Assembly (NCBI GenBank): GCA_963775855.1
Contig: CAVZKO010000008.1
Coordinates: 3,422 to 67,421 of the forward strand
Direction: 5' to 3'
Source of the DNA: an uncultured Chloroflexia bacterium
GTDB taxonomy: Bacteria > Chloroflexota > Limnocylindria > Limnocylindrales > CSP1-4
DNA: 64,000 nucleotides
Position 1 is the stretch's first letter. Every line of letters starts with the position of its first letter. Made by a program: the position numbers and the translations under genes. The notes below the pieces were generated by a model that was given only the letters and a program-made list of their open reading frames with translations, was not told the DNA's origin and did not search any database. Of this stretch, positions 10,822 to 47,320 are shown piece after piece.

Positions 10822-11415
10822 ATGGATCAACTCGTTATCGAGCGCAGGGTCGAACGCCGCCGCAAGCGGCGGCGCGGGATCGTCGCGCTGCTTGCCGCGC
10901 TCTCGGCCCTGACGATCGGCGCCGGCTCCGTCTCCCTCGCGCTGTTCACCGATCAGGACAGCTCGACCTGGTCGTTCACGGTCGGCACGATCGACATCGA
11001 GTCGAACCCGGCGGTCATGGCCGCCATCACCGACATGATGCCCGGCGACACCGTTGCTGACAGCCTGACGATCTCGAATGCCGGGACCGCCGACTTCCGC
11101 TACGCGATGGCAACCGTCGCGACGAACGCGCTCGGCGACGAGCTCGATGTCGCGGTCCGCGGGGAAGATCTCGACGGCGCCTGCGATGACTTCGACGGCG
11201 CAGTCGTCGTTGCCGCGGGCACGGCGCTCGACGGCGCGGGCTTCGGCAGCGCCGCCCAGGGCCCCAACGCGGGCGACAGGGTCCTCGTCGGGGGCGCCAG
11301 CGAGGTGCTGTGCTTCCAGGTGAGCCTGCCGCTCGCCACGGACAACACCTTCCAGGGCGCCACGTCCCTGGCCACGTTCAACTTCCTCGCTGAGCAGACT
11401 GCCAACAACCCGTAA
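10822..11415 (+). CDS. TasA/CalY-like protein with SipW-cognate signal peptide
   Basis: Basic N-terminus, hydrophobic stretch, then SLALFTD (SipW-class cleavage motif). GTIDI...MMPGDTV...ISNAGT pattern and C-terminal FQG...F.AEQ typical of TasA/camelysin-like proteins. Confidence 0.78.
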   Translation: MDQLVIERRVERRRKRRRGIVALLAALSALTIGAGSVSLALFTDQDSSTWSFTVGTIDIESNPAVMAAITDMMPGDTVADSLTISNAGTADFRYAMATVATNALGDELDVAVRGEDLDGACDDFDGAVVVAAGTALDGAGFGSAAQGPNAGDRVLVGGASEVLCFQVSLPLATDNTFQGATSLATFNFLAEQTANNP

Positions 11416-11436
11416 CTCGCACGTCGGCTGCGCTGC

Positions 11437-11466
11437 GCTGCGACCTGCCATTCGGCGGGTCGCAGC
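11437..11466 (+). terminator. Intergenic stem-loop between the tasA-like gene and sipW
   Basis: GCTGCGACCTGCC-attc-GGCGGGTCGCAGC, 13-bp stem with one G-U pair and no U-tract. Confidence 0.55.
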
Positions 11467-11512
11467 CCAGTACCCGGACCGCGATCGCTCGATCACTCAA
11501 CCGGAGGCAACT

Positions 11513-12253
11513 ATGAGGATCCTCGCGTCGGCGACTGCCGGCCTGCGGCAATTCCTCGACCTCCTGCTGATCGGACTCGTCCTCGCCGTGCTGGTGGGCA
11601 TCCTGCTCGCCAAGCTCGTTCCGCTGACCGGCCGCCAGACGATCATCGTCGGCGGCTCGTCCATGGAGCCCGCGATCGGGCTCGGGGCCGCGATCGTCAT
11701 CCGGCCCGTCCCGGCCGAGGCCCTCGCCGTCGGTGATGTCGTCACCCTGCACGCCGGCGCGAAGAGCGCCATCTACACGCACCGGATCATCGAGGTCGTC
11801 GACCGGCCGGACGGCCGCTGGATCCGGACGCAGGGCGACGCCAACGCCCATCCCGACCCGACCCTGATCCACGCTTCGGCAGTCGTGGGCCGGACCGAAC
11901 TCGCGATCCCCCTTGTCGGATACCTTCTCGCGCTGCTATCGATCCCGACCGGCGTCCTGTTCCTCGTCGGCGTCGCCGCGACGCTGCTCGCGGCGGCGTG
12001 GTTGCTGGAGTCGCTCGAACTGGAGCAGACGTCCATGGTCACGATGACCCTCTCGCCGGGAACCAACCGCGGCCAGGGCGAGCCCATCGCCGCCCGGCCG
12101 ATCGCGCCTCGGGACCTCGCGCCCGACGGCGGCTTCCTGGGCGGCGCCCGTCTGAACCGGGCCGAGAAGCTCGCGTTCATGCGAGCCTCGCGGCAGCACC
12201 GGACCTCGCCGATGCAGACCGCGTCGAGGCCGACCACCCGCCGGCCCGGCTGA
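11513..12253 (+). CDS. sipW: Signal peptidase I, SipW (ER/archaeal) type
   Basis: GGSSMEP (catalytic Ser), YTHRII (His in place of Lys), RTQGDAN. N- and C-terminal TM segments. SD GGAGG upstream. Confidence 0.88.
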   Translation: MRILASATAGLRQFLDLLLIGLVLAVLVGILLAKLVPLTGRQTIIVGGSSMEPAIGLGAAIVIRPVPAEALAVGDVVTLHAGAKSAIYTHRIIEVVDRPDGRWIRTQGDANAHPDPTLIHASAVVGRTELAIPLVGYLLALLSIPTGVLFLVGVAATLLAAAWLLESLELEQTSMVTMTLSPGTNRGQGEPIAARPIAPRDLAPDGGFLGGARLNRAEKLAFMRASRQHRTSPMQTASRPTTRRPG

Positions 12254-12263
12254 CAGGCGCCTC

Positions 12264-13193
12264 GTGCACAAGCGGTTCGGCCTGTCGGCCCTGCTCGTCG
12301 CCGTCGTCGTCACGGGTGCGACGGGCAAGGCGACGCTCGCCCGCCTCACCGACCAGGACGCCTCGACGAAGTCCTTCTCGACCGATACCCTCGCGCCGCC
12401 GACGAACGTCGCCGCGACGCCGGTCGGTCTGACCGCGCATCTCACCTGGACCCCCAGCGTCGACGCCTACGCCGCCGGTTACGAGATCTGGCGGAGCACG
12501 ACGAGCGGCAGCGGCTACGTGCTGGTCGGGACAGCGACGCCCGGCACCGCCTCGAGTGCCACCGATGCGGCAGGGGTCGGGCTCTTCTACTACGTCCTCC
12601 GCTCGTACTTCCAGAACTGGCGCAGCGTCAATAGCAACCAAACGAGCGTGACGATATCGCTCGGCCCGGTCAGCACCGGACCGAAGGCCTGCGGCACGAG
12701 CGCGGCGGACACCGGTGGCGACGGCAACGGCTACGAGACCGGGACCGCGAGCGCCTGCACCGACGACAGCGTGATGGCGACCGACGTCAACACGGGGACC
12801 GGCGCCCGCTCGACGGCATGCGCGAACGTTGCCAACGATCGCCATCGGTTCCGCGACTTCTCGCTGGGCATGCCCGGCAGCGTGACCCTCGTCAGCGGGA
12901 TCCAGGTCCGGGCCGACGTCGGGATGAACAACAACGGCGGCACGTCGCGCCTGTGCGTCGAGCTGTCGGGTGACGGCGGGTCGACCTGGACCGCGGCCAA
13001 GGTGCTCACGCTATCGGGTGCCGCGGAGGCGACGTACCTGTTCGGCGGCGCGGCCGACACCTGGGGCAAGGTCTGGACGGCAGGCGAGTTCAGCAACGCC
13101 AATTTCCGGGTTCGCTTCACCGATGCGACGAACCAGCCGAACAAGGACTACCTGCTCGACTACGTCTCGGTGAACGTCACCTACACGCCCTAG
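12264..13193 (+). CDS. Second SipW-dependent secreted protein (FN3-like plus Cys-containing domain; TapA-like position)
   Basis: Signal peptide ending ATLARLTDQD, LAPPTNVAA...LTWTPS...YEIWRS FN3-like domain, four Cys in the C-terminal half. Confidence 0.65.
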   Translation: MHKRFGLSALLVAVVVTGATGKATLARLTDQDASTKSFSTDTLAPPTNVAATPVGLTAHLTWTPSVDAYAAGYEIWRSTTSGSGYVLVGTATPGTASSATDAAGVGLFYYVLRSYFQNWRSVNSNQTSVTISLGPVSTGPKACGTSAADTGGDGNGYETGTASACTDDSVMATDVNTGTGARSTACANVANDRHRFRDFSLGMPGSVTLVSGIQVRADVGMNNNGGTSRLCVELSGDGGSTWTAAKVLTLSGAAEATYLFGGAADTWGKVWTAGEFSNANFRVRFTDATNQPNKDYLLDYVSVNVTYTP

Positions 13194-13645
13194 GAGCCCT
13201 CGAAGGCCTCGATCGCCGCCCGGTACTGCGGCGGGATCGGCGTCGGGCGACGCTCGGCGACCTCGATCAGCACGAGCGTCTGGACGGCCGTGCACATAAG
13301 GCGGTCATCGTCGACGCGGTAGGCGGCACACTCGACGGTAGCGCTCGAGCGGCCGATCCGGGACGTCCGAACGAAGACCTCCAGCAGGTCGTCGAAGACC
13401 GCCGGCGCCTCGTACTCGACGCTCATCGCCCGCATCACGAACTCCTGGTCGCCCTGCCACAGTGCTCGCAGCCCGAGATGGCGGTGGTACTCGAGCCGGG
13501 CGTGATCGAAATAGGGCAGGTACCGGCCGTAGTAGACGACGCCCTGGGCATCGGTGTCGGAGAACCACACCCGGGCGTGCGCCGAGAATCGGAAGGGCGG
13601 CTTGCGGTCCGTGGGTCCGGCGTCGTAAATGTCGCGATCGGTCAT
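13190..13645 (-). CDS. Acyl-CoA thioesterase (4HBT/YbgC hot-dog fold)
   Basis: RVWFSDTDAQGVVYYGRYLPYFDHAR, VEYEAPAVFDDLLEV, IGRSS. ATG 13645 with TACGAT-N6 upstream. Confidence 0.88.
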   Translation of the reverse strand: MTDRDIYDAGPTDRKPPFRFSAHARVWFSDTDAQGVVYYGRYLPYFDHARLEYHRHLGLRALWQGDQEFVMRAMSVEYEAPAVFDDLLEVFVRTSRIGRSSATVECAAYRVDDDRLMCTAVQTLVLIEVAERRPTPIPPQYRAAIEAFEGS

Positions 13646-13921
13646 CGGCCGATCGTACGCGAGTCCCCGATCGCCGATCTCGTCGGGAGGCCCGGGCCTC
13701 ACGCCGGCCTGGGTGGTGCGCCGGCGCGCCAGCAACTCGCGATTGATTACGCCTGCGGATCGCCTGTGGGGCGACGTACGTACCGCACCCTAGCGCACCC
13801 TCCGTATCAGGACCCCCAACCAACACGCCAGCCGCCGACGGACCAAGGTCGGGCTTGGCCCGGGGCGAGATCGTCGGGCAAGGTAGGGGAGTCGCATTCC
13901 GCTGACCCTCAGCCCCGGAAT

Positions 13922-14000
13922 GCGCGACCAAAGGCACACCCGTCGCGAGGCGGGGTCGCAAAGCTTCGGACCTGGGAACAGGTGGCCGGGCTGCCGTCTG
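13922..14000 (+). ncRNA. c-di-GMP-I (GEMM-I) riboswitch
   Basis: GGCACACC(13933-13940)-CGTC-GCGA tetraloop-GGCGGGGTCGCAAAGC-...ACCTG-ggaa-CAGGT-GGCCGGGCTGCCG matches the GEMM-I architecture. G at the position-20 equivalent favours c-di-GMP over cGAMP. Confidence 0.85.
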
Positions 14001-14077: not shown

Positions 14078-15781
14078 ATGCGAAACATCCGTGTCGCCGA
14101 TCCTCGGGATCGCGTACTCGTCGACCCGAATCCCCCGATCCCGACCCGGCGCTCTCGCGGCTCTCGCGCTCGCGACATCCTGCTCACGATCCCAATCGCG
14201 CTCCTACTGCCTGCGATCGTCCTCTTGTCCGCGCCCGCGGCCGCCGGCGGCCCGACCCTGACTGCAACCCCGACGATGATCGCGGCCGGCACGAAGGTGA
14301 CCTTGCGCGCCGCAAGCTTCCCCGCTGGCAGCGACGGCATGATCTTCCTCGACGACGGCGCGAAGGAGCTGGCCCGGTATCGCGTCAATGGCAAGGGCAA
14401 GTTCCGCGTGGCGGTCGTCATGCCGGCCGCCGTCGCGGCCGGAAAGCACACGGTGCGAGCCCAGTCGGGCTCCGAGACAGTCGCCGAGCTCGTCGTCACC
14501 GTGACCTCCGAGAACGCGGAGCCGACTCCGGTCCCGACGCCCAACCCAACGCCGGTAGTCACGCCTCCGCCCACGCCCGCCCCAACGCCTCCCCCGACGC
14601 CGGTCGTCACGCCCGCCCCCACGCCCGCCCCGACGCCGGTCGTCACGCCGCCGCCGACGCCTACCCCCACACCGCCACCGACGGTCGCTCCGGCGCCCAC
14701 GGCCACGCCGACTCCGAGTCCGACGCGAACACCAACCCCAACCGCCGCGCCGACGGCGACCCCCCGGCCGACCTCGACTCCGACACCGCTGCCGACCGCG
14801 ACGCCCGCCCCGACGCCCGCCCCGACCACCGGCCCGGCCCCGGCGAGCGGCACGATCCTCATCGACCGGGCGACGCTGATGTCCCTCCCGATGAGCGGCT
14901 CAGGGTGGCTCGCGCTCAAGGCGCGCGCCGATCTCCCGGTGGGTTCCCCGAACCTCTCCAACCAGGATGACCCGAACGATGTCACGGCCCTCGCCAAGGC
15001 GCTCGTGTACGCCCGCACCGGCGTGGTCCGCTACCGCGATGAAACAATCACGATGCTCAAGGCCGCTGTCGGCACCGAGTATCCGGGCGACGCCCTCGGC
15101 ATCGCCCGAGGTGTCGCGCCGCTCGTCCTGGCCGCAGACCTCGTCGGCTGGCGCGAGCCCACCTGGATGAGCTGGCTCAGCAGGCTCCGAACCTGGGCCA
15201 ACCCCGACCGTGGCTTCACCCTGATCAGCATGCATGACAAGCGCCCGAACAACTGGGGGGCGCACGCCGGTGCGGGTCGCATCGCGACCGACCTCTACCT
15301 CGGCGACATGGTCGACCTCGCTCGCGCCGCGAAGGTGTTCAAGGGGTACCTCGGCGACCGGGCCTCGTACGCCTCGTTCAGCTACGGCAGCGACCTGAGC
15401 TGGCAGGCGAGCGCGGTCTCGCCCGTCGGCATCAATCCGGCCGGGGGGACACTCGACGGGATCATGCCGGACGACATGCGCCGCGGCGGCCCGAGCCCGG
15501 TCGTCGGCGATCTCGGCCAGAGCTACACCTGGGAGGCCCTCCAGGGCACTCTCCTGCAGGCTGAGCTCCTCTCCCGGAACGGCTATCCCGCCTGGGACTG
15601 GCAGAACCAGGCCATCCTGCGGGCGTTCTACCGCATCAACGCCCTCGGCTACCCCGCCGTCGGTGACGACCGCTGGCAGCCCTGGCTCATCAACCGCCGC
15701 TACGGCACGTCGTTCGCGGCGTCGACGAGCACGACCGCAGGCAAGAGTTTCGGCTACACCGACTGGCTCTTCGCGAGGTAG
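14078..15781 (+). CDS. Secreted alginate-lyase-fold protein with long Pro/Thr linker (paralog B)
   Basis: Signal-like hydrophobic segment, Ig-like domain, about 105-aa PT linker, [32 protein letters not shown] and WEALQG shared with paralog A. Confidence 0.68.
14520..14840 (+). repeat. Pro/Thr-rich low-complexity linker repeats
   Basis: Recurring ccgacgcc/cccacgcc units encoding [15 protein letters not shown]... Confidence 0.8.
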
Positions 15782-32036: not shown

Positions 32037-32048
32037 CAACGCCGACGC

Positions 32049-38306: not shown

Positions 38307-38317
38307 CCTTCCGCGAC

Positions 38318-39291: not shown

Positions 39292-40434
39292 TCAGTCCGG
39301 CAATTCGTGGACGATGATGTTGTCGAACCAGACAGTCGCTTCGGACCGACCAAGGTCAAGCGCAAGCTTGACGTTCGGATCGGCGACGAGATGGGTGACC
39401 TCGAAGCTGATGGCGCTCCATGTCGTCCCAACCTGCAGCACGCGAGATGCCGTGATCTGGCCGCCAGCGGCGATCAGCCGAACCGTCACCTCGCGCGCCG
39501 CCGCCGCCTTCATGGAGAGGTTGACGACGTACGTCACGCCTTGGCCGAGCGCGAAGTCGTCGGACGTGAGGGAGATCCCCGAGCGTGCGGCGCTGCCGAT
39601 GCTGATATCGACGCGAGCGGCCGCCGATCCATCCGGGCCCGCGAGTGGCTCGTGGGTCAAGGTGGCTTGCGCGCGGTCGGTCAGCTGGAGCTGCCAGCCA
39701 TTGACTCCGTCCTCGAATCCGGGGTTGAAGACGAGGCTCGCCGGGACTCCCGACGGCGGCGGGGAGGCCGGTGGCGGAACGGTGGGCGTGGGTGGCGGCA
39801 GCGTTGGCGGGGGCGGCGTCGGGCGGGGCGGCGAGGGACTCGCTGCCGGCGGAGTCGAGCTCGGCGCGACGCTCGGGCCTGAACGACCGGCGAGTGCATC
39901 GGTGATCCGCTCGTTGAGCGCGGGCAGGGCAGCGAGCAGCTCGATGACGGCCCGCGCGCCCGCGACGTACGCGTCGACGTTCCGGATGGAATTCTGCAGC
40001 GTTTCGGTGTTGCTAGCCATGACCGCGTTGTAGAAGGCGCCGAGGTCGGCTCCCAGTTCGGCCGTGTCATCGCCTAGCTGGAGTCGATCAGCGGCCTCCC
40101 TGCCGGCCGTCAGGTCCGTGTTGACCGACCGGAGGTGGCCGGCGATCTCGGGAGCGAGCGGGACCTCGACTGCGATCGCCGCATCGAGCGCCAGGGCACG
40201 GCTGGCGAGGCTCTGATTCACGACCAGGGCAGTTGCCAGCGCTCGCCGGATCTCAGGGTCCATCGTCGGCAACGCACTCGGTTCGACGGACGGGCCCGAT
40301 GACGGGGCCGGGTCGTTTGGTAGGCCGTCAACGGCGAAGGCCTGCGCCGCGATCAGGGCCACCGCGAGCAATCCGACGAGCGCCGAGGCGATCAATTCCG
40401 GCGACGCCAAGTCGCGGATGCGCCGGCCACTCAT
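39292..40434 (-). CDS. Membrane-anchored protein with Pro linker and C-terminal CBM4/9-like carbohydrate-binding domain
   Basis: ATG 40434, TM, helical region, Pro linker, LVFNPGFEDGVNGWQL...TYVVNLSMKA...VWFDNI. Confidence 0.65.
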   Translation of the reverse strand: MSGRRIRDLASPELIASALVGLLAVALIAAQAFAVDGLPNDPAPSSGPSVEPSALPTMDPEIRRALATALVVNQSLASRALALDAAIAVEVPLAPEIAGHLRSVNTDLTAGREAADRLQLGDDTAELGADLGAFYNAVMASNTETLQNSIRNVDAYVAGARAVIELLAALPALNERITDALAGRSGPSVAPSSTPPAASPSPPRPTPPPPTLPPPTPTVPPPASPPPSGVPASLVFNPGFEDGVNGWQLQLTDRAQATLTHEPLAGPDGSAAARVDISIGSAARSGISLTSDDFALGQGVTYVVNLSMKAAAAREVTVRLIAAGGQITASRVLQVGTTWSAISFEVTHLVADPNVKLALDLGRSEATVWFDNIIVHELPD

Positions 40435-41175
40435 GTGGCCACGACCTTCCGCCTGCGTCTGCACCTGAAGCTGCTGCTCCAGATCGACGCCGGGCTCGGC
40501 CATTACGGCAGAGAACGCGAGGGACAGTTCGACGCCCTGCCGCCCGGTGATCAGCAGCCGATCCGCGAGGACCGCCACCTCGGCGTCGGCGAGCGAGATG
40601 CTCGCCGCGACAGCCGACGGGCTGATGTGAATCGGACCGAGCACGTTCAGCTTCGTGCCGACTCGGGCGAGGAAATAGCGGCTCCCGATCTGGAGTGACC
40701 CCATGCCGCCCATGAAGATCCCGCTACCCAGGATCGCGACCGTCCCACTCGACCTGGCGACGGGCGCCGGCGCCGCCTCGAGCGTCGCCCTGCGTCCGAG
40801 CATTGTTGCGGAGCGGCGACCGGGCGCAACTCCGTTACCAGGCGGAGCGGCCGTCCGAGCAGGACCGCGCGGCTCAGGCCCGGGCGAGGCAATCGTCGTG
40901 GGAGCTCCAGCGACAGCGGCCTCCGTCTCCGCGCCGCTGCGCCGGAACTCGGCGCCGCACGCGTCGCATCGCCCTGGCCAACCCCGTGTTCGCGCCCCGC
41001 AGGTCGGGCAACGGCCGGGGGGTGCCAGTGCAAGGAGTCCGACGGCGATCGGGCCGAGGGCGATTCCGAAGGCGAACCAGGCTGCCCAGGATCGCCCGCG
41101 CTGGATTGCGAGCCAGCTGGCGAGCGGCGCGAAGACGATTGCCGAGACGATGAGGGCAATGAAGGGAAGTGGCAA
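40431..41175 (-). CDS. Membrane protein with CxxC...CxxC zinc ribbon (in-frame with the downstream gene as assembled)
   Basis: Two TM segments, RGRSW..WF.FG..LGPI, CPTCG...CDACG. Start uncertain (TTG 41175). Confidence 0.55.
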
Positions 41176-41338
41176 TCCGGATACGACTCCTTTGGGCGCA
41201 CCCGTCCGGGCGCGCCGGCCAATGGTAGGCGGCACCGGCGGCACGCGCTGCAGGGAGAGATGCCCCAAAACGGTGCCTACCGTCAACGAGAATGACGCCG
41301 TGGACCCGCTTAAGCACGCGTTTGACAGCAAATCGTTA

Positions 41339-41367: not shown

Positions 41368-41526
41368 GGTACTACGAGCGCGCAGGACTAAAGGTCTACG
41401 GTCTCATTCGGTCATCTTCTTTTTGGGGACCTGCGAACTCGTTCCCGTCGGCCGGGCAAGCCGCGGACCTTGGATACCCGCGTCCCGTGGGGCAAATCGG
41501 GAAGTTGGGGCAGGGGGAGATCAGAC

Positions 41527-42942
41527 TTGAAGGTCACCGTTATCGGTCAAGGCTACGTGGGTCTCGTCACGTCGGCAGGGGCAGCCGCGTGGGGACACGA
41601 AGTCGTCGGAGTCGAGCGGCAGGAGGACCGCCTTCGGGCGCTGCTGTCCGGACACGTACCGTTCCATGAACCGTCCCTCAGCGAGCTGGTCGAACTTCAC
41701 CTGGGAGACGGCCGCCTCCGGTTCACCGCCGATTCCCAGGGGCCAGTGTCCGCGTCGAGCCTGACCTTCGTGGCGGTCGGCACAGTCAACGCGGACCAGG
41801 AGTGGGAGACGAACACGATCCGAGCCTGTCTGGCCGAGGTCGTCCCGCACATCCCGGACGACGGGGCCGTGGTGGTCCGGTCGACCTGCCCGCCTGACTT
41901 CATCGGACAGCTTCCCGCGTACGTCGACGGGCTCCGCCGGGATGCCGGTCGCGAACCGATCGCGGTGATGCTCAACCCCGAGTTCACCAAGGAAGGTACC
42001 GCGGTCCAGGACTTCCTCACGCCGGACCGCGTCGTCATTGGTGTGGCATCGGACCCGCACGAGCACGGGGTGGCGCTGCTGCGCGAGTTCTACGCCCAGG
42101 TCGAGGCCCCGGTTCTCGTGCTCTCGGCGATGGATGCCATCCTGGCCAAGCTGGGTGCCAACCTGTTCCTTGCAACGAAGATCTCGTTCGCCAACGAGCT
42201 GGCGGCTCTGTGCGATCTGTACGGCTCGCAGATCGAGCGGGTCATCGAGGGCATGGCTCATGACCCCCGAATCGGCGGCTCGTTCCTGCGAGCCGGTATC
42301 GGGTTCGGAGGCTCGTGCCTGCCGCACCAGGTGACGATGACCGTCCGCGAGGCGGCGGCCCGGGGCCACGATACGCCGTTGTTCGCCGCCGTCGATGACA
42401 TCAATCTCCGCCAGCGGCTCACCTTTGTCGATCGCATCGACGCGTTGGTCGGCGGCGTCGCAGGCCGGCGCATTGCGCTCCTCGGATTGACGTTCAAGCC
42501 CCACACGGACGATCTCCGTGCGGCACCGTCGCTGGACATCGCCAGCATGCTGATCGATCGGGGCGCGTCGGTCGTCGCCTTCGATCCCATGGAGACCGCG
42601 CGCCGCAACGCCAAGGCCCAGATCCGGCGGTTGGTCGTGGTAAGCAGCGCCCTCGAGGCCGTCAGCGACGCCGACGTGATCGCCCTCGTAACCGAGTGGC
42701 CCGAATTCGTGACGCTGCCGTGGGCACAGATCGCGAGCATAGTCCGCCAGCGGATCGTCATCGACGGGCGCAACGCGCTCGACCCCGACGCCCTCCTCGA
42801 GGCCGGCTTCGTCTATTCATCCTTCGGGCGCGGCCATCGGATCCCGGCCGAGCTCGGGAGCCCAGCCGCCCAGGCCCGGGCCCCAGAAGGCACCCGGATG
42901 GGAATTCCAATCGGCGCCGAGTTCGCCGTCGGCGACTTCTAG
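41527..42942 (+). CDS. ugd: UDP-glucose/GDP-mannose dehydrogenase family protein
   Basis: KVTVIGQGYVG, NPEF, AKLGANLFLATKISFANE, GFGGSCLP, LGLTFKPHTDDLR, IDGRN. TTG start after GGGGGAG. Confidence 0.88.
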   Translation: MKVTVIGQGYVGLVTSAGAAAWGHEVVGVERQEDRLRALLSGHVPFHEPSLSELVELHLGDGRLRFTADSQGPVSASSLTFVAVGTVNADQEWETNTIRACLAEVVPHIPDDGAVVVRSTCPPDFIGQLPAYVDGLRRDAGREPIAVMLNPEFTKEGTAVQDFLTPDRVVIGVASDPHEHGVALLREFYAQVEAPVLVLSAMDAILAKLGANLFLATKISFANELAALCDLYGSQIERVIEGMAHDPRIGGSFLRAGIGFGGSCLPHQVTMTVREAAARGHDTPLFAAVDDINLRQRLTFVDRIDALVGGVAGRRIALLGLTFKPHTDDLRAAPSLDIASMLIDRGASVVAFDPMETARRNAKAQIRRLVVVSSALEAVSDADVIALVTEWPEFVTLPWAQIASIVRQRIVIDGRNALDPDALLEAGFVYSSFGRGHRIPAELGSPAAQARAPEGTRMGIPIGAEFAVGDF

Positions 42943-42973
42943 CCATGGTGGGGCACACCGGGGGCGATCAGCC

Positions 42974-43636
42974 ATGATCACTTGGTTCACCACGATCTTC
43001 GCCGGCCTCGTCGGACTGGTCGTCGGGCTGCTGGTTGGCGACCCGTTGCCCGGCGTGGCGTTCGGGCTCGGACTGCTCGTTGGCGGCGCCGCATCGGTCG
43101 TCGTCGTCCCCGCGTTGCGATCCGCCCCGGCCGGCATCAAGGGCGCCGCCATCGACGACGTGGCTGCGGGCTGGATCGAATTCCACCGCGAGCTGGCGCG
43201 GGCGAGGCGGTTCGATCGCCCGTTCGCCATCGTCCGCTTCTCAGTCGGTCGCTCGCCGGACGAGGGGGTCCTGGTCGGGCTGCGCAACGAAATCGCCGCA
43301 ATCTCCCGCCGCATCGACCGGCTGTGGATCGACGAGGACCATATCCTGCTTCTTCTCCCGGAGGCCACCGAGGCAGCAGCGAAAGCCGCTCTGTCCAGGG
43401 TCTACGTCGGGGTCCCGGCAGCAGTTGCCTTCGCGCCCGGGCTCGCGCTGTATCCGGAGCATGGAATCACGAGCGGTGCATTGATCGCAGCGGTCTACGG
43501 CAACGGGCAGGCGGAGGTCCCGACGCCGATCGCCGCGGCGCGCCCGGAACTGTGGCTCCAGCCGGCCGCGGGTATAGCCATCCAGACGGAGGGCGCTCCG
43601 GGCGGGTCGGACGAAGTGGCGAGCCAGAGTGGCTGA
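42974..43636 (+). CDS. 2-TM membrane protein with degenerate GGDEF-like domain
   Basis: FHRELARARRFDRPFAIV, RRID (RxxD), IDEDHILLLLPE in place of GGDEF..LLPE, GLALYPEHG. Confidence 0.68.
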   Translation: MITWFTTIFAGLVGLVVGLLVGDPLPGVAFGLGLLVGGAASVVVVPALRSAPAGIKGAAIDDVAAGWIEFHRELARARRFDRPFAIVRFSVGRSPDEGVLVGLRNEIAAISRRIDRLWIDEDHILLLLPEATEAAAKAALSRVYVGVPAAVAFAPGLALYPEHGITSGALIAAVYGNGQAEVPTPIAAARPELWLQPAAGIAIQTEGAPGGSDEVASQSG

Positions 43637-44252
43637 TCCCCGAGCGCTCAGCTACCGTCGGTTCAGCCGCACGAAGCGGGCCATGGATCTCATCATCTGC
43701 ATCGTCGCGATGCCCCTCCTCGTACCGGTTCTCCTGGTTTGTGCGCTCGCCGTCCGGCTGGAGTCGCCCGGCCCAATCCTCTTCCGCCAGCAACGAACCG
43801 GGCGTCACGGCGTCCGCTTCGGCATGTACAAGTTCCGCACGATGGTCGCCAACGCCGAGGAGTTGAAGGCGTCGCTCGCCCATCTGAACATCCTGCCGCC
43901 GCCGGATTTCAAGATCATCGACGACCCGCGGATCACACGGGTTGGCCGCATTCTCCGAACGACCAGCCTCGACGAGCTGCCACAGATCCTCAACGTCGTG
44001 CGCGGCGAGATGTCGCTGGTCGGCCCGCGGCCGACGTCCTTTGCGGCGAGCACCTACCGGTTGTGGCATGCTGAGCGTCTCGAAGTGGTGCCCGGGATCA
44101 CGGGCTTCTGGCAGATCCGCGGCAGAAACGCGTCAACCTTTGACGAGCGGCTCCGGCTCGACGTGGAATACATCCAGCAGATGTCGCCGTTGCTCGATCT
44201 CAAGATCCTCATCTGGACAATCGGATCGGTCGTGAAGAGATCCGGAGCGTAG
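43629..44252 (+). CDS. Priming polyprenyl-phosphate sugar transferase (Bac_transf domain)
   Basis: KRAMDL, SPGPILFRQQRTG, MYKFRTM, DPRITRVG, LDELPQ, MSLVGPRP, PGITG.WQ. Confidence 0.92.
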   Translation: MADPRALSYRRFSRTKRAMDLIICIVAMPLLVPVLLVCALAVRLESPGPILFRQQRTGRHGVRFGMYKFRTMVANAEELKASLAHLNILPPPDFKIIDDPRITRVGRILRTTSLDELPQILNVVRGEMSLVGPRPTSFAASTYRLWHAERLEVVPGITGFWQIRGRNASTFDERLRLDVEYIQQMSPLLDLKILIWTIGSVVKRSGA

Positions 44253-44269
44253 TGCGGGGGAATACCGTC

Positions 44270-47200
44270 ATGACGTCGCGACGAGCGACGTGGCTCGAGC
44301 GTCGCCAGCGCCGGTCGCGATTGGTCGCCATCCTTGGCTTCCTTGTGATCGTTGGGTCGGCTTTGCCGATGGCCGCTCTCGCCGCCCCAGGCGACATCGG
44401 CAATGAGGGCCCGTCATTCGATGGCGCCAGCGGCACGGCCACAGGGTCCAAGCCCGAAAGCAAGCTGTGGTGGAACGACGGGATCTGGTGGGGGAGCCTG
44501 TGGGACACCGATACCCTGACCTACCACATTCATCGGCTTGACCTGGCCACCAGCAGCTGGGTCGACACGGGGGTTCAGCTCGACAATCGGCCCGGCACCC
44601 GAGCCGACACGCTCTGGGACGGGACGAAACTCTACGTCGCCTCGCATCGGTATTCGTCGACTCCGGCGGCCGGCTACGCGGCCCGGCTCTACCGGTTCAG
44701 CTACAACGCGGCAGCCAAGACCTACACGCTCGACTCAGGCTTTCCGGCGACGATCCACAATTACAGGGTCGAGACCCTCGTGATCGATAAGGACACCACG
44801 GGGATGCTCTGGGCGACCTGGATCCAGAACAGCCAGGTTCACGTCAGCCACACGAACGGCTCCGACAGCAGCTGGGTCACGCCGTTCGTCCTACCTGGGC
44901 CGGGCACGACCGTCAACATCGACGACATCTCGTCGGTCATCCACTTCCAGAAGTCTGGCGAGACCGGTCGCATCGGTGTGATGTGGAGTAACCAGAACGA
45001 CTCGAAGGTCTACTTCGCGATTCACGTCGATGGCGCTGCGGACACCGTTTGGGACAGCAGCAAGACCGCCCTCCAGGGCCCGGGCGACGCCGACGACCAC
45101 ATCAATCTCAAATCTGTCCAGTCGGACGGCAACGGCAAGGTCTACGCGGCGATCAAGACGAGCCACTCGTCGTCTTCCGCTCCGCTGATCATGGCTCTCG
45201 TCTTCAATCCCGCAACCGGAACGTGGTCCAACAGCGTCGCCGGGCGCGTCTCAGACAGCCATACGCGCCCGATCATCGTCATCGACGACGAGCACAACGT
45301 CGCCCATGTCGTCATGACCGGCCCCCAGCCGCCCGCGACAAGCGGCCAGAACGGCGGCTCCATCTACGACAAGACCGCCCCGCTCGGGACGATGGCCTTC
45401 GCTACCGGCGTCGGTACGCCGATCATCCGCGACGCAGACAGTCCCGACATGAACGACGCAACGTCGACGAAGCAGAACGTCAGCAGCACCACCGGCCTTG
45501 TCATCCTCGCGGGCAATGACACGACCAACCGGTACTGGTGGAGCTTCGATCCGCTCGGCGGTACGCCGCCGCCAGTGAACCCGCCGGTGGCCGCATTCTC
45601 GGCGACCCCGACGTCAGGACCGGCACCGCTCGCGGTCACATTCACCGACGGCTCGACGAACCTGCCCACGAGCTGGGCCTGGGACTTCGACAACAACGGT
45701 TCCGTCGACTCGACCGTCAAGAACCCGGTCCATACCTACGCCGCTCCGGGGACGTACTCGGTGAAGCTCACCGCCACCAATTCGGCTGGCAGCGACGACG
45801 AGATCAAGACGGGTTTCGTCACGGTCGGCGCCCCGCTCACGTTTGTCACATTCACGCCGGGGGCCGATGCCTTCGTGAGCTCGTCGAGCCCGACGAAGAA
45901 CTATGGCTCTGACGTGCAATTGCGGGTCCGCGCGTCCTCGACCACCTATCGCTCGTACCTGAAGTTCACCGCGAGCGGCCTCGACGGCCCGGTCAAGTCG
46001 GTCCGCCTGCGGCTCTTCGTCAGCGACGCCAGCCCGGACGGCGGTTCGATCTACGCCGTCCCGAGCGGTTGGACGGAGACCGGCATCAACTACAACAACG
46101 CCCCGGTGCTGCCTGGATCGCCGATCCGCGCGATCGGCGCCACGCCGCCCGTTGGCAGCTGGGTCGACGTCGATCTCGGCACGGCCATCACCGGCAATGG
46201 CACGTACAGCTTCGGCATCGCCAACAACAACACCAACAGCGCCTACTACTCGAGCCGGCAGGGGACGAATCCACCCCAGCTGATCGTCGGCTATGAGGCG
46301 GGTGGAACGCCCGAGATCGCGCCCGTTGCGGCCTTCTCCGCGACGCCGACATCCGGTCCGGCGCCGCTCTCGGTGACGTTCAGCGACGCCTCGACGAATC
46401 AGCCGACGAGCTGGGCGTGGGACTTCCAGAACGACGGCACGGTCGACTCGACCGCCCAGAACCCGGTGTTCGCCTACGGCACGGACGGCACGTACTCGGT
46501 GAAGCTGACCGCGTCGAACGGGGCCGGCAGCGACGACGAGATAAAGGTCGACTACGTGACGGTTGCGACGACACCGCCGCCGGAGATTGCGCCCGTCGCT
46601 GCCTTCTCGGCGACGCCGACGTCCGGTCCGGCGCCCCTATCGGTGACGTTCAGCGATGCCTCGACAAACCAGCCGACGAGCTGGGCGTGGGACTTCCAGA
46701 ACGACGGCACGGTCGACTCGACGACCCAGAACCCAATCTTCGCCTACAGCACGGCCGGCACGTACTCGGTGAAGCTGACCGCGGCAAACGGGGCCGGCAG
46801 CGATGACGAGGTCAAGGTCGGTTACGTGGTCGTTGGGACGACTCCACCGGGCGGTGGAACGATCACGGTGACCCCGACCGCCGACTCCCGGACCAGCCAG
46901 GCGTTCCCCGCGAGCAACTACGGCGGCGATGCATCTCTCCGGGTCCGCCTCGACCCAACCGGGGCGTACCGAAGCTACCTCCGCTTCGCGGTTGCGGGCA
47001 TCACTGGGACGGTCGGCTCGGTAACGCTGCGGCTGTTCGTCACGGATGCGAGCCCGAGCAGTGGGACCGTCTACCCCACGACCAACACGTGGACGGAGTC
47101 GTCGATCAATTGGGGCAACGGCCCGGCCGCCAGTGGATCCGCGATCCGCTCGATCGGGGCCACCACGCTCGGGGCCTGGGTCGACGTGAACCTGACCGGC

Positions 47201-47320
47201 GCGATCACCGCCGACGGGACGTACAACTTCCTGATCAGCGACGGCAACACCAACAGCGCGTTCTTCTCGAGCCGCGAGGGGGCCAACCCGCCGCAGCTGG
47301 TGATCACCCAGTCCCCCTGA
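44270..47320 (+). CDS. Large secreted protein: propeller-like domain, 3 PKD domains, 2 DNRLRE/CBM96-like domains
   Basis: ESKLWWNDGIWW domain, PKD units (VTFSDASTN.PTSWAWDF), ADAFVSSSSPTKNYG...YRSYLKF and ADSRTSQAFPASNYG...YRSYLRF. Confidence 0.8.
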   Translation: MTSRRATWLERRQRRSRLVAILGFLVIVGSALPMAALAAPGDIGNEGPSFDGASGTATGSKPESKLWWNDGIWWGSLWDTDTLTYHIHRLDLATSSWVDTGVQLDNRPGTRADTLWDGTKLYVASHRYSSTPAAGYAARLYRFSYNAAAKTYTLDSGFPATIHNYRVETLVIDKDTTGMLWATWIQNSQVHVSHTNGSDSSWVTPFVLPGPGTTVNIDDISSVIHFQKSGETGRIGVMWSNQNDSKVYFAIHVDGAADTVWDSSKTALQGPGDADDHINLKSVQSDGNGKVYAAIKTSHSSSSAPLIMALVFNPATGTWSNSVAGRVSDSHTRPIIVIDDEHNVAHVVMTGPQPPATSGQNGGSIYDKTAPLGTMAFATGVGTPIIRDADSPDMNDATSTKQNVSSTTGLVILAGNDTTNRYWWSFDPLGGTPPPVNPPVAAFSATPTSGPAPLAVTFTDGSTNLPTSWAWDFDNNGSVDSTVKNPVHTYAAPGTYSVKLTATNSAGSDDEIKTGFVTVGAPLTFVTFTPGADAFVSSSSPTKNYGSDVQLRVRASSTTYRSYLKFTASGLDGPVKSVRLRLFVSDASPDGGSIYAVPSGWTETGINYNNAPVLPGSPIRAIGATPPVGSWVDVDLGTAITGNGTYSFGIANNNTNSAYYSSRQGTNPPQLIVGYEAGGTPEIAPVAAFSATPTSGPAPLSVTFSDASTNQPTSWAWDFQNDGTVDSTAQNPVFAYGTDGTYSVKLTASNGAGSDDEIKVDYVTVATTPPPEIAPVAAFSATPTSGPAPLSVTFSDASTNQPTSWAWDFQNDGTVDSTTQNPIFAYSTAGTYSVKLTAANGAGSDDEVKVGYVVVGTTPPGGGTITVTPTADSRTSQAFPASNYGGDASLRVRLDPTGAYRSYLRFAVAGITGTVGSVTLRLFVTDASPSSGTVYPTTNTWTESSINWGNGPAASGSAIRSIGATTLGAWVDVNLTGAITADGTYNFLISDGNTNSAFFSSREGANPPQLVITQSP
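46313..46820 (+). repeat. Near-identical tandem duplication of a PKD-coding unit (270-bp period)
   Basis: Units start at 46313 and 46583 and share long identical stretches, e.g. cagccgacgagctgggcgtgggacttccagaacgacggcacggtcgactcgac. Confidence 0.85.

What the first reader, a model, noticed from the sequence alone, without database searches (positions are those of the whole stretch)
10822..47320. About 36-kb biofilm-matrix super-locus joining protein fibre, EPS, remodelling enzymes and c-di-GMP control
Seen in one block: tasA-like/sipW/tapA-like genes, a c-di-GMP-I riboswitch, secreted lyase-fold, PKD and CBM proteins, and complete Wzx/Wzy machinery (priming transferase, GT2, flippase, polymerase, co-polymerase). 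It also has uronate precursor genes (ugd, GlcA-epimerase-like), a degenerate GGDEF protein and the phosphonate module. No Wza-type outer-membrane exporter is present, consistent with a monoderm. Inference: a coordinated matrix programme making an acidic, phosphonylated polyuronate plus TasA-like filaments.
Basis: inference. Interest (0 to 1): 0.7.

Follow-up and report, generated by a model that had tools for sequence, protein, structure and literature searches.

The report
Variable matrix/EPS island in soil Chloroflexota
The 36-kb stretch really holds a TasA-type fibre operon beside a c-di-GMP-linked gene cluster for an acidic exopolysaccharide. Relatives show these are two independently assorting cassettes in a hypervariable surface-glycan island, not one fixed super-locus.

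Summary
Nearly every listed gene is present: a TasA/camelysin-family gene, a SipW-type peptidase, a c-di-GMP-I riboswitch (54.5 bits), three lyase-fold proteins, PKD/CBM proteins, a full Wzx/Wzy set, Ugd, a UDP-GlcA-4-epimerase homologue, a fold-confirmed degenerate GGDEF protein, and PepM with a VlpB-like dehydrogenase. The 3.4-Mb MAG (uncultured Chloroflexota) has no Wza or BamA.

I compared 41 genomes of the genus. The site between acyl-CoA genes and an MBL–MoaDE–M55 flank is a 21–53 kb hypervariable glycan island.

- **EPS block.** The 33.6-kb block from the riboswitch to PKD/CBM96 stays collinear wherever it occurs (9/41 genomes). That includes distant species at about 40–80% amino-acid identity. 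Its sub-blocks therefore belong together.
- **tasA operon.** It occurs in 24/41 genomes and assorts independently. It sits beside unrelated EPS types, lies at the other end of the island in one carrier, and is missing in three carriers.
- **c-di-GMP inputs.** There are two: the riboswitch before the lyase/PKD operon, and an RxxD-retaining GGDEF-like membrane protein overlapping the priming transferase. The ugd–dGGDEF–PGT trio recurs in distant Chloroflexota.
- **Product.** A uronate-containing heteropolysaccharide is better supported than a polyuronate. Phosphonylation is plausible but unproven.

Verdict: observation confirmed, interpretation partly supported, a new variant of known kinds.

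The parts
10786..11415 (+). TasA/camelysin-family secreted fibre subunit with a SipW-type signal (…SLALFTDQDSS…)
   Evidence: PF12389 scores 49.9 bits against a cut-off of 22.5. The TIGR04088 cognate_SipW signal scores 17.6 bits, just under its cut-off of 19. An orthologue is present in 24/41 genus genomes.
11513..12253 (+). SipW-type (archaeal/ER-type) signal peptidase I
   Evidence: TIGR02228 scores 70.7 bits against a cut-off of 51.85. The Bacillus SipW equivalog NF046067 scores 67 bits, below its cut-off of 190.
12264..13193 (+). Second SipW substrate: TasA-like signal and N-terminal strand, then unrelated domains. It is a positional and functional analogue of TapA, not a homologue.
   Evidence: No Pfam or NCBIfam hit. 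Only the N-terminal 90 residues resemble the TasA-like protein (E 3e-6). It travels with tasA-sipW in relatives.
13190..13735 (-). 4HBT thioesterase. Belongs to the acyl-CoA flank, not to the matrix genes.
   Evidence: PF13279 and PF03061. In G004, G023 and G026 it abuts the upstream acyl-CoA gene directly, with no tasA operon between.
13923..13998 (+). c-di-GMP-I (GEMM-I) riboswitch aptamer. A hairpin that can sequester the SD of the 14078 gene follows at 14040-14068.
   Evidence: RF01051 scores 54.5 bits against a gathering score of 35. The hairpin appears in the MFE fold. The aptamer is conserved upstream of the lyase1 orthologue in G005, G009, G061, G030 and G064.
14078..15781 (+). Secreted lyase-fold protein 'lyase1': signal/TM segment, Pro/Thr-rich linker, C-terminal Alginate_lyase-like domain
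   Evidence: PF05426 scores 27.5-29.7 bits against a cut-off of 22.2. The C-terminal domain is 56-97% identical in relatives.
15936..18920 (+). Large secreted PKD-domain protein
   Evidence: PKD_4 scores 132 bits over two stretches.
19069..19380 (+). Small secreted protein with a weak EF-hand-like motif. This region is not conserved in G005.
   Evidence: EF-hand hits score 17 bits, below the cut-off. The blastn alignment with G005 has a gap at 18921-19797.
19769..21322 (-). Wzy_C-family polymerase (or ligase)
   Evidence: PF04932 scores 78.6 bits.
21319..22491 (-). GT2 glycosyltransferase
   Evidence: PF00535 scores 90.9 bits.
22565..24031 (-). Wzz/PCP co-polymerase fused to a P-loop, BY-kinase-like C-terminus
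   Evidence: PF02706 scores 28.4 bits. TIGR01006 scores 84 bits and TIGR01007 38 bits, both below their cut-offs.
24170..25147 (-). CE4 polysaccharide deacetylase
   Evidence: PF01522 scores 61 bits. The start was set where conservation with G030 and G064 begins.
25150..26430 (-). ATP-grasp ligase (approximate start)
   Evidence: The best PDB hit is D-Ala-D-Ala ligase B, E 1.5e-5. A homologue in L043 carries PF15632 ATPgrasp_Ter.
26433..27325 (-). PEP mutase-like enzyme with motif EDNLFPKRNS (approximate start)
   Evidence: PF13714 scores 184 bits. TIGR02320 scores 260 bits against a cut-off of 319.55. The motif is identical in five orthologues.
27322..28293 (-). D-2-hydroxyacid (PGDH-like) dehydrogenase. 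Candidate VlpB-type phosphonopyruvate reductase.
   Evidence: PF02826 scores 180 bits. The VlpB class is defined as 2-Hacid_dh_C next to Ppm (PMC8942020).
28290..29285 (-). Thymidylate-kinase-like P-loop protein
   Evidence: PF02223 scores 29.4 bits.
29321..30460 (-). HprK-like P-loop protein (weak assignment)
   Evidence: TIGR04355 scores 19.4 bits and the FomB family 16.7 bits, both far below their cut-offs.
30459..32042 (-). Wzx-type flippase (approximate start)
   Evidence: PF01943 scores 46.2 bits. Conservation with G030 begins at residue 200 of the long ORF.
32049..33155 (+). APH-family kinase, divergent from wzx
   Evidence: PF01636 scores 41 bits against a cut-off of 23.2. This frame is the best conserved, at 37% identity over 460 aa with G030.
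33123..33929 (-). SAM-dependent methyltransferase
   Evidence: PF08241 scores 76 bits.
34012..36000 (+). Secreted Alginate_lyase-family protein 'lyase2'
   Evidence: PF05426 scores 101.5 bits.
36324..38306 (+). Secreted protein of unknown family (660 aa)
   Evidence: No Pfam or NCBIfam hit. Conserved at 38-92% identity in all carriers.
38309..39265 (+). UDP-glucuronate 4-epimerase homologue
   Evidence: The best PDB hits are the 6ZL6/6ZLA set (255 bits) and MoeE5 (210 bits). The next family scores 164 bits.
39292..41331 (-). CBM_4_9-bearing secreted or membrane protein
   Evidence: PF02018 scores 29 bits.
41470..42942 (+). UDP-glucose 6-dehydrogenase family protein (Ugd)
   Evidence: Three UDPG_MGDP_dh domains. 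TIGR03026 scores 349.8 bits against a cut-off of 189.8.
42974..43636 (+). Two-TM protein with a degenerate GGDEF fold. GGDEF is replaced by DEDHI, and R112-x-x-D115 is invariant. Its last 8 nt overlap the PGT gene.
   Evidence: The ugd-dGGDEF-Bac_transf trio is conserved in distant Chloroflexota.
43629..44252 (+). Small priming phosphoglycosyl transferase (Bac_transf)
   Evidence: PF02397 scores 214.8 bits.
44252..47320 (+). Large secreted protein with PKD x3 and CBM96 x2
   Evidence: PF24517 scores 210.5 bits and PKD_4 128.6 bits.

Best explanation
The interval is this genome's version of a hypervariable cell-surface and matrix island. The island occupies one fixed chromosomal site in a genus of uncultured soil Chloroflexota. 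That site lies between acyl-CoA metabolism genes and an MBL-hydrolase/MoaDE/peptidase-M55 flank. The island holds two cassettes that assort independently.

**Cassette A (10.8-13.2 kb).** This is a tasA-like/sipW/second-substrate operon. By analogy with Bacillus TasA and archaeal bundling pili, it is predicted to make donor-strand-exchanged extracellular fibres. SipW would remove the signal peptides. The third protein offers a TasA-like N-terminal strand and would act as nucleator or anchor.

**Cassette B (13.9-47.3 kb).** This is one coherent Wzx/Wzy-dependent EPS type.
- Ugd and a UDP-GlcA 4-epimerase homologue supply UDP-GlcA and UDP-GalA.
- A small PGT and one GT2 build a short repeat on the lipid carrier.
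- The repeat is tailored by deacetylation, ATP-grasp acylation (possibly with PepM/VlpB-derived phosphonolactate), methylation and phosphorylation.
- It is then flipped (Wzx), polymerised (Wzy_C) and length-controlled (Wzz/P-loop).
- No outer-membrane exporter is needed.
- Secreted lyase-fold, PKD and CBM96/CBM4_9 proteins bind and trim the acidic polymer.

**c-di-GMP inputs.** The signal enters cassette B at two points. A GEMM-I riboswitch gates translation of the lyase1-PKD operon. An RxxD-retaining but catalytically dead GGDEF membrane protein is translationally coupled to the PGT and probably gates initiation.

**Shown versus inferred.** Gene identities, the GGDEF fold, synteny and the distribution across genomes are shown. 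The chemistry, ligand binding, the direction of riboswitch control and any co-regulation with the fibre operon are inferred.
For: **Gene content:**

**A fixed site with variable content**
- The same flanks enclose 21-53 kb of different genes in G035, G004, G017, G027, G033, G015 and G024.
- 118 ORFs from five such islands are rich in glycan genes: GT4 x9, epimerase/dehydratase x9, Bac_transf x4, Polysacc_synt_2 x4, Wzy_C x3, GT2 x3, DegT x3 and beta-helix x7.

**Cassette B is a unit**
- About 26 genes are collinear in G005, G009 and G061 (65-99% aa) and in G030 and G064 (34-83% aa). There are minor indels, and G064 shows no wzx match at the site. The riboswitch sits in the same position in all of them.
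- PepM is found only in the nine genomes that carry this EPS type.

**Cassette A is independent**
- TasA is in 24/41 genomes and EPS-X in 9/41. Six genomes have both.
- tasA lies next to other EPS types in G035, G017, G024 and G013.
- It lies at the far end of the island in G030.
- It is absent in G064, G026 and G028.
- Both traits are patchy on a tree built from the flank proteins.

**c-di-GMP**
- Riboswitch.
- GGDEF fold with an invariant RxxD.
- The ugd-dGGDEF-Bac_transf trio with overlapping stop and start codons recurs in 3 of 3 contexts of distant homologues, including Chloroflexi GWC2_73_18.
- Riboswitches in other island types precede beta-helix proteins.
- Another riboswitch in this genome precedes a secreted subtilase.

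**Monoderm envelope:** no Poly_export and no Omp85.

**Background from papers**
- TasA homologues are already known in Chloroflexota (PMC9245690).
- TapA works by strand complementation (PMC10151520).
- The founding CBM96 member binds alginate (PMC9971899).
- The VlpB-type branch of phosphonate biosynthesis is described (PMC8942020).
Against: - No expression data could be obtained, so co-regulation of the nine or more transcription units is untested.
- Wzy_C proteins can be ligases or O-oligosaccharyltransferases rather than polymerases.
- Only two glycosyltransferases are recognisable.
- The PepM-like protein is below the NCBIfam trusted cut-off and lacks the Lys of the EDKX5NS motif.
- A related operon (L043) has deacetylase, ATP-grasp and TMK-like genes without PepM or the dehydrogenase. 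The tailoring genes are therefore not phosphonate-specific.
- The sequence evidence for the GGDEF domain is weak (E 0.08). The fold evidence rests on a model with pLDDT 77.
- Many of the genus genomes are fragmented MAGs, so some absences are uncertain.
- When present, the TasA orthologue lies in this island in 22-23 of 24 genomes. A looser functional link between fibre and EPS therefore remains possible.
Confidence: 0.62

Rival explanations
1. The whole 36 kb is a single coordinated biofilm-matrix programme. TasA-like fibres, a phosphonylated polyuronate, remodelling enzymes and c-di-GMP control are selected and regulated together.
For: - All components lie in one block.
- When the TasA orthologue exists, it almost always lies in this same island, beside whichever EPS type is there.
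- c-di-GMP riboswitches recur in the islands of other species.
- In Bacillus, the eps and tapA-sipW-tasA operons are co-regulated although unlinked (my own knowledge).
Against: - tasA and this EPS type assort independently: 6 of 9 carriers have TasA against 18 of 32 non-carriers.
- tasA changes position in G030.
- G064 carries the block (no wzx match at the site) and no TasA anywhere in its genome.
- There are nine or more transcription units, one riboswitch, and no shared intergenic motif.
Confidence: 0.2
2. Cassette B does not make a biofilm exopolysaccharide. It makes a cell-envelope glycan, such as a wall-linked polymer or a protein O-glycan. Its serotype-like variability would be driven by phages and predators. 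The Wzy_C protein would then be a ligase or O-oligosaccharyltransferase.
For: - Hypervariable content at a fixed site with conserved flanks is the pattern of capsule and O-antigen loci.
- Wzy_C is shared by WaaL and PglL-type enzymes. The best NCBIfam hit is a 'putative O-glycosylation ligase', at 80.9 bits and below its cut-off.
Against: - A Wzz/PCP protein with a kinase-like domain argues for polymerisation.
- Secreted lyases and CBM96 proteins, and the c-di-GMP inputs, are typical of matrix EPS systems.
- The capsule and EPS readings overlap and are not strictly exclusive.
Confidence: 0.13
3. The lyase-fold, PKD and CBM proteins are a foraging set for foreign polyuronates such as pectin or alginate-like polymers. 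On this view they only happen to neighbour an EPS cluster.
For: Alginate_lyase-family domains and CBM96/CBM4_9 are typical of polysaccharide degraders. A further paralogue lies outside the island at 3957-5993.
Against: - These genes are interleaved with the biosynthesis genes and collinear with them across species down to about 35-60% aa identity.
- No uronate transporter or catabolic genes are in the block.
- PKD/CBM96 proteins follow the PGT gene even in distant Chloroflexota.
Confidence: 0.05

Closest known systems
Bacillus subtilis matrix genes: epsA-O plus tapA-sipW-tasA
   Same: Both combine a TasA-family subunit, a dedicated SipW-type peptidase and a second SipW substrate in one operon with an EPS cluster as the other matrix component. 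Both organisms are monoderms.
   Different: - In Bacillus the two operons are unlinked and co-regulated by SinR and RemA. Here they are adjacent but assort independently.
- The gene order is tasA-sipW-X, not tapA-sipW-tasA.
- The third protein is not homologous to TapA.
- The peptidase fails the Bacillus SipW equivalog cut-off.
- Control involves c-di-GMP elements that are absent from the Bacillus operons.
Capsule and O-antigen loci, for example the Streptococcus pneumoniae cps locus between dexB and aliA
   Same: Conserved flanks enclose alternative Wzx/Wzy cassettes of 20-50 kb. Types are distributed patchily across the phylogeny. No mobile-element hallmarks are present.
   Different: - The host is an uncultured soil Chloroflexota lineage.
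- The island also carries a fibre operon.
- It carries c-di-GMP riboswitches and secreted lyase or beta-helix proteins.
PelD (Pel system) and Listeria PssE: degenerate-GGDEF c-di-GMP receptors that activate EPS synthesis
   Same: All are membrane-anchored proteins with a dead GGDEF fold that retains the RxxD I-site. All are encoded inside an EPS operon next to a glycosyltransferase. PelD is among the Foldseek hits.
   Different: - This protein is much smaller (220 aa, two TM helices, no GAF domain) and lacks part of the GGDEF core.
- Its partner is the priming phosphoglycosyl transferase of a Wzx/Wzy pathway, not a synthase-type enzyme.
- Ligand binding is untested.
c-di-GMP riboswitch control of secreted matrix and adhesion factors, for example C. 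difficile ZmpI/CD2831 and V. cholerae gbpA
   Same: A GEMM-I aptamer sits directly upstream of a gene for a secreted extracellular protein.
   Different: - The controlled genes are a polysaccharide-lyase-fold protein and a PKD protein embedded in an EPS cluster.
- The direction of control (ON or OFF) is unknown.
VlpB-type phosphonate pathways (valinophos) and phosphonoglycans
   Same: PepM lies beside a 2-Hacid_dh_C dehydrogenase and no Ppd is present. This is the class defined in PMC8942020. As in phosphonoglycans, the genes are embedded in a glycan cluster.
   Different: - There are no vlpCDE genes.
- There is no cytidylyltransferase or LicD-type transferase.
- The PepM motif is EDN…NS, so the usual EDKX5NS filter would miss it.
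- Attachment chemistry is only inferred (ATP-grasp plus deacetylase).

Membership tests
TasA/camelysin family (Pfam PF12389, Peptidase_M73) | Profile match above the gathering score | tested here: met
   49.9 bits against a cut-off of 22.5, residues 29-108.
TasA/camelysin family (Pfam PF12389, Peptidase_M73) | SipW-dependent N-terminal signal and an adjacent SipW-type peptidase | tested here: met
   The TIGR04088 signal scores 17.6 bits, just under its cut-off of 19. The neighbouring gene passes TIGR02228.
TasA/camelysin family (Pfam PF12389, Peptidase_M73) | Assembly into donor-strand-exchanged fibres | not testable with these tools
   No solved relative is detectable by sequence. Testing needs recombinant protein and electron microscopy.
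TapA | Sequence homology to Bacillus TapA | tested here: not met
   No Pfam or NCBIfam hit for 12264-13193. Only the signal and N-terminal strand resemble the TasA-like protein.
c-di-GMP-I riboswitch (Rfam RF01051) | Covariance-model score above the gathering score, full-length aptamer | tested here: met
   54.5 bits against a gathering score of 35, model positions 1-87.
c-di-GMP-I riboswitch (Rfam RF01051) | Ligand binding and a regulatory response | not testable with these tools
   Only an SD-sequestering hairpin is seen in the MFE fold, and the fold z-score of -1.0 is not significant.
Wzx/Wzy-dependent polysaccharide pathway | Priming phosphoglycosyl transferase, flippase, polymerase and co-polymerase all present in one cluster | tested here: met
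   Bac_transf 214.8 bits, Polysacc_synt 46.2, Wzy_C 78.6 and Wzz 28.4, all above their Pfam cut-offs.
Wzx/Wzy-dependent polysaccharide pathway | The Wzy_C protein acts as a polymerase rather than a ligase | not testable with these tools
   The family includes ligases. TIGR04370 scores 28.4 bits, below its cut-off of 40.
GGDEF domain / diguanylate cyclase | Pfam PF00990 match | tested here: not met
   No Pfam hit even at E 5.
GGDEF domain / diguanylate cyclase | GGDEF fold | tested here: met
   The top 25 Foldseek hits against the PDB are all GGDEF domains, best E 4.7e-5 with probability 1.0. A profile search against the PDB returns only diguanylate cyclases.
GGDEF domain / diguanylate cyclase | Catalytic GG(D/E)EF motif | tested here: not met
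   The aligned position reads DEDHI, and the GTP-binding insert is missing.
PelD/PssE-type degenerate-GGDEF c-di-GMP receptor | Retained RxxD I-site | tested here: met
   R112 and D115 are invariant in 46 homologues down to 28% identity. They align to the RSSD of DosC.
PelD/PssE-type degenerate-GGDEF c-di-GMP receptor | PelD architecture (four TM helices, GAF domain, GGDEF domain) | tested here: not met
   The protein has 220 aa, two N-terminal helices and one GGDEF-like domain, with no GAF domain.
PelD/PssE-type degenerate-GGDEF c-di-GMP receptor | c-di-GMP binding | not testable with these tools
   Needs ITC or DRaCALA on residues of about 55-185.
PEP mutase (TIGR02320; EDKX5NS) | Equivalog score above the trusted cut-off | tested here: not met
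   260.3 bits against 319.55. It is still the best-scoring family, ahead of phosphonopyruvate hydrolase at 202.9 bits.
PEP mutase (TIGR02320; EDKX5NS) | EDKX5NS motif | tested here: not met
   The motif reads EDNLFPKRNS and is identical in five orthologues.
VlpB-type phosphonate branch | A 2-Hacid_dh_C gene next to ppm, with no Ppd | tested here: met
   PF02826 scores 180 bits. The dehydrogenase gene ends where the PepM-like gene begins (stop at 27322, PepM start about 27325). No TPP decarboxylase is in the block. The class definition is in PMC8942020.
UDP-glucuronate 4-epimerase | Closest characterised relatives are UDP-GlcA 4-epimerases | tested here: met
   The 6ZL6/6ZLA set scores 255 bits and MoeE5 210 bits. 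dTDP-glucose dehydratases score 164 bits or less. The identities of these PDB entries come from my own knowledge.

The most novel reading that the evidence does not exclude
A soil Chloroflexota lineage keeps its matrix genes in one serotype-like, hypervariable island, and c-di-GMP acts inside each EPS cassette at two layers. The first layer is a riboswitch on the secreted lyase or beta-helix enzymes. The second is a minimal, PelD-like dead-GGDEF receptor translationally coupled to the priming phosphoglycosyl transferase. That receptor would be a dedicated c-di-GMP gate on initiation of a Wzx/Wzy pathway, which to my knowledge has not been described. In this allele, an ATP-grasp ligase would N-acylate a deacetylated amino sugar of the uronate-containing polymer with phosphonolactate. 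The phosphonolactate would come from a PepM that escapes the standard EDKX5NS filter.
Probability: 0.2. Interest if true: 0.7.

Novelty: new variant of a known kind. Interest (0 to 1): 0.45.

Why it matters
- Almost nothing is known about how uncultured soil Chloroflexota build extracellular matrices.
- This locus gives a concrete, testable parts list: a TasA-type fibre, a tailored acidic EPS, secreted trimming enzymes and two c-di-GMP inputs.
- The comparison shows how these parts evolve. They are exchangeable cassettes at one chromosomal hot spot, like capsule serotypes.
- The conserved ugd–dead-GGDEF–priming-transferase trio is a candidate new way for c-di-GMP to gate a Wzx/Wzy pathway.
- The PepM variant (EDN…NS) shows that motif-based surveys can miss phosphonate producers.
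- The comparison also corrects an attractive over-reading. Adjacency in one genome is not proof of a single coordinated programme.

Tried and rejected
- **Promoter and terminator scans** of 10.5-48.5 kb found no sigma-70-like sites. Terminator-like sites were no more frequent than in shuffles. This was uninformative.
- **Shared 10-mers** among 12 intergenic regions: none occurs in three or more regions, so there is no candidate common operator.
- **Mobility hallmarks:** no tRNA genes in the window, no direct repeats bracketing the island, and no copies of the 2834/3719/6049 REP-like element inside it. An integrative element is unlikely.
- **The search for related loci** with the dGGDEF alignment failed for lack of a conserved stretch. 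The single-protein scan returned only three close relatives, which did at least name the lineage.
- **Conserved upstream riboswitch.** I asked whether the riboswitch about 16 kb upstream of the window extends the matrix region. It is followed by a 41-aa ORF and then ilvBNC/leuA housekeeping genes, so it does not.
- **The idea that the three kinase-like genes serve the phosphonate module** is weakened. A related operon has deacetylase, ATP-grasp and TMK-like genes without PepM or the dehydrogenase.
- **The long N-terminal extensions** of the wzx, methyltransferase, deacetylase and ATP-grasp ORFs were rejected as artefacts of high G+C content. Conservation starts further in.

Full report
**Observation**

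The window has about 69% G+C. I called genes from codon-position G+C and from Pfam and NCBIfam scans.

*Fibre operon and flank*
- A Peptidase_M73 (TasA/camelysin) gene lies at 10786-11415.
- A signal peptidase at 11513-12253 passes TIGR02228, the archaeal/SipW-type model.
- A third secreted protein at 12264-13193 has no family match. It shares only the signal and N-terminal LA-x-(F/L)TDQD-ST-SF segment with the TasA-like protein.
- A 4HBT thioesterase follows on the opposite strand.

*Riboswitch operon*
- A c-di-GMP-I aptamer at 13923-13998 scores 54.5 bits against a gathering score of 35.
- It precedes a secreted Alginate_lyase-like protein, a PKD protein and a small secreted protein.

*The 10-gene minus-strand operon*
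- The order is wzx, HprK-like, TMK-like, 2-hydroxyacid dehydrogenase, PepM-like, ATP-grasp, CE4 deacetylase, Wzz/P-loop, GT2, Wzy_C.
- Most junctions have overlapping stop and start codons.

*Remaining units*
- An APH-family kinase on the plus strand at 32049-33155.
- A SAM methyltransferase on the minus strand.
- lyase2, an unknown 660-aa secreted protein, and an epimerase.
- A CBM_4_9 protein on the minus strand.
- ugd, a 220-aa membrane protein, Bac_transf, and a 1022-aa protein with PKD x3 and CBM96 x2.

*Three finer checks*
- The epimerase's best solved relatives are the 6ZL6/6ZLA set and MoeE5. From my own knowledge these are UDP-GlcA 4-epimerases.
- The 220-aa protein has no Pfam hit. 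A profile of 46 homologues finds only diguanylate cyclases in the PDB. An AF2 model (pLDDT 77) has GGDEF domains, including PelD, as its top 25 Foldseek hits. GGDEF is replaced by DEDHI, while R112-x-x-D115 is invariant.
- The MAG has no Poly_export and no Omp85 gene. Its close relatives are deposited as 'uncultured Chloroflexia bacterium' MAGs. This fits a monoderm.

The window lies in a 3.43-Mb, 8-contig MAG. I compared the window with 40 other species of its genus by blastn. I fetched the region from 13 genomes with contiguous assemblies and mapped all window proteins onto them by tblastn.

*The site*
- The left flank (acyl-CoA dehydrogenase and an ADP-forming acyl-CoA synthetase/enoyl-CoA hydratase fusion) is conserved in most genomes of the genus.
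- So is the right flank (MBL hydrolase, a membrane protein, MoaD/E and peptidase M55).
- Between them lie 21-53 kb of content that differs from genome to genome.
- A Pfam tally of 118 ORFs from five such islands is dominated by glycan genes. It includes GT4, epimerases/dehydratases, Bac_transf, Polysacc_synt_2, Wzy_C, GT2, DegT and beta-helix proteins.
- The site is therefore a hypervariable surface-glycan island, comparable to capsule or O-antigen loci.
- It has no tRNA, no flanking repeats and no recombinase (and the Pfam scans).

*The EPS type of the window*
- It spans the riboswitch to PKD/CBM96, 33.6 kb and about 26 genes.
- It occurs in 9 of 41 genomes.
- It is collinear in all six carriers whose assemblies cover the site. 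These are the window's own MAG, three close relatives, and G030 and G064.
- G030 and G064 share only about 35-83% amino-acid identity with the window. On a flank-protein tree they sit among species that carry other types.
- The riboswitch keeps its place in front of the lyase1 orthologue in all of them.
- PepM was found only in these nine genomes.
- The EPS sub-blocks therefore behave as one evolutionary unit. This supports the part of the interpretation that joins biosynthesis, tailoring, secreted lyase/PKD/CBM proteins and c-di-GMP elements.

*The tasA operon behaves differently*
- The orthologue is present in 24 of 41 genomes.
- It is nearly always in this island, inserted between the acyl-CoA gene and the thioesterase.
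- It accompanies unrelated EPS types in G035, G017, G024 and G013.
- It lies at the opposite end of the island in G030.
- In G004, G023 and G026 the two flank genes abut where it would be.
- It is absent altogether from G064, which carries the EPS type except that wzx was not detected at the locus.
- Six of nine carriers have TasA, against 18 of 32 non-carriers.
- Sister genomes differ: G035 has it and G004 does not, and G017 has it and G015 does not.
- Fibre and EPS are therefore separate cassettes that share a hot spot.

**c-di-GMP**

- Only one of at least nine transcription units has a riboswitch.
- An MFE fold places the SD of the lyase1 gene in a hairpin (CUCCUGCC with GGUAGGAG). The energy is not unusual (z = -1.0), and the direction of control is unknown.
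- In other island types, riboswitches precede right-handed beta-helix proteins or unknown secreted proteins.
- A second riboswitch elsewhere in this genome precedes a secreted subtilase.
- The riboswitch regulon thus looks like a set of secreted extracellular enzymes.
- The second input is the dead-GGDEF protein. Its gene overlaps the PGT gene by 8 nt.
- In three of three contexts of distant homologues (28-33% identity) the order ugd–dGGDEF–Bac_transf is kept. Two of the three have overlapping codons. A PKD/CBM96 protein and an epimerase lie nearby. One of these contexts is Chloroflexi bacterium GWC2_73_18.
- This is the most conserved core of the cluster. It is the best candidate for post-translational c-di-GMP gating of initiation, by analogy with PelD and PssE.

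**Product**

- The evidence for uronic acids is fourfold. It comprises Ugd with a UDP-GlcA 4-epimerase homologue and three Alginate_lyase-family proteins, one of them outside the island at 3957-5993. It also includes CBM96, whose founding member is alginate-specific (PMC9971899).
- One PGT, one GT2, a CE4 deacetylase and Wzx/Wzy/Wzz point to a short heteropolymer repeat containing an amino sugar, not a polyuronate.
- PepM beside a 2-Hacid_dh_C enzyme without Ppd matches the VlpB-type branch to phosphonolactate (PMC8942020).
- However, the PepM-like protein is below the TIGR02320 cut-off. Its motif reads EDNLFPKRNS, conserved in five orthologues.
- A related operon has deacetylase, ATP-grasp and TMK-like genes without PepM or the dehydrogenase.
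- Phosphonylation is therefore plausible but unproven. The kinase-like genes are not phosphonate-specific.

**Comparison with known systems**

- TasA homologues are already recorded in Chloroflexota (PMC9245690).
- The third gene resembles TapA only in logic, that is, an N-terminal strand able to complement TasA (PMC10151520).
- The island resembles cps and O-antigen loci in its population structure.
- The dead-GGDEF protein resembles PelD and PssE in principle. It differs in size, architecture and partner enzyme.
- The riboswitch-controlled secreted enzymes recall the Clostridioides and Vibrio cases.
- Each element is a variant of a known kind. The combination in one hot spot of an uncultured soil lineage is new, and so is the conserved ugd–dGGDEF–PGT trio.

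**Limits**

- Many genus genomes are fragmented MAGs.
- Several long-read assemblies show frameshift-like split matches.
- Gene starts in this G+C-rich DNA are approximate.
- All chemistry and ligand binding are inferred.

**Verdict**

The best reading is a two-cassette allele of a hypervariable matrix/glycan island (confidence about 0.6). It is of moderate interest as a new variant of known kinds.

Noticed in passing
G000 contig C6:10168-10258 (-), about 16 kb upstream of the window start. Same relative position in G005 C5:851091-851180 and in most genus genomes.: A second c-di-GMP-I riboswitch (61.8 bits) is conserved about 20 kb upstream of the island across the genus. It is followed by a 41-aa hydrophobic ORF and then, 660 nt on, by ilvB-ilvN-ilvC-leuA-leuB. 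Its target is unclear.
   Followed up: partly
G000 contig C5:558159-558244 (-), locus L047:5955-7133: The third c-di-GMP-I riboswitch of this genome (64.9 bits) lies 27 nt upstream of a secreted subtilase (Peptidase_S8, 118 bits).
   Followed up: partly
G000 contigs C6 (start) and C8 (start), compared with G005 C5:850500-870499: The starts of contigs C6 and C8 of the window's assembly are neighbours in the close relative G005, separated by about 2 kb. The window's contig therefore continues into C6 in reverse orientation.
   Followed up: yes
locus L043:12296-16389 (a distant relative, contig_28352): A related EPS cluster has deacetylase, ATPgrasp_Ter, a TMK-like gene and an unknown gene in the same order, but no PepM or dehydrogenase between them. 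The phosphonate pair in the window looks like an insertion into an older tailoring operon.
   Followed up: partly
G009, G061, G030 and G064 loci, between the GT2 and wzz orthologues (for example L006:12540-14913): These carriers of the same EPS type have about 2.4 kb of extra genes, including an SDR epimerase-like gene. The window and G005 lack them. In G064, tblastn with the window's wzx found no match between the HprK-like and methyltransferase genes, which lie only about 120 nt apart.
   Followed up: no
window 3957-5993 (-): A third Alginate_lyase-family protein (43 bits, with a weak CBM35-like C-terminus) lies outside the island among metabolic genes. It is about 50% identical to lyase1 and conserved in G005, G009 and G061.
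   Followed up: partly
window 2834-2994, 3719-3880, 6049-6212: Three copies of a ~160-nt palindromic REP-like element (75-80% identical) lie upstream of the island. No copy lies inside 10-48 kb.
   Followed up: partly
locus L044:1-1390 (Chloroflexi bacterium GWC2_73_18, MGMJ01000007.1): Two canonical GGDEF-domain genes sit next to the PKD/CBM96 – ugd – dGGDEF – Bac_transf cluster of this distant relative. This could be a local c-di-GMP source.
   Followed up: no
window 35978-36244 (-), within the 323-nt gap between lyase2 and the 660-aa gene: An 88-codon ORF on the minus strand would encode a strongly hydrophobic small protein. Whether it is a real gene was not checked.
   Followed up: no
G005, G009 and G061 loci (L022-L030): Many orthologues appear as two adjacent tblastn pieces in different frames (for example TMK-like, HprK-like, lyase2, epimerase). 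This looks like long-read frameshift errors rather than pseudogenes.
   Followed up: no
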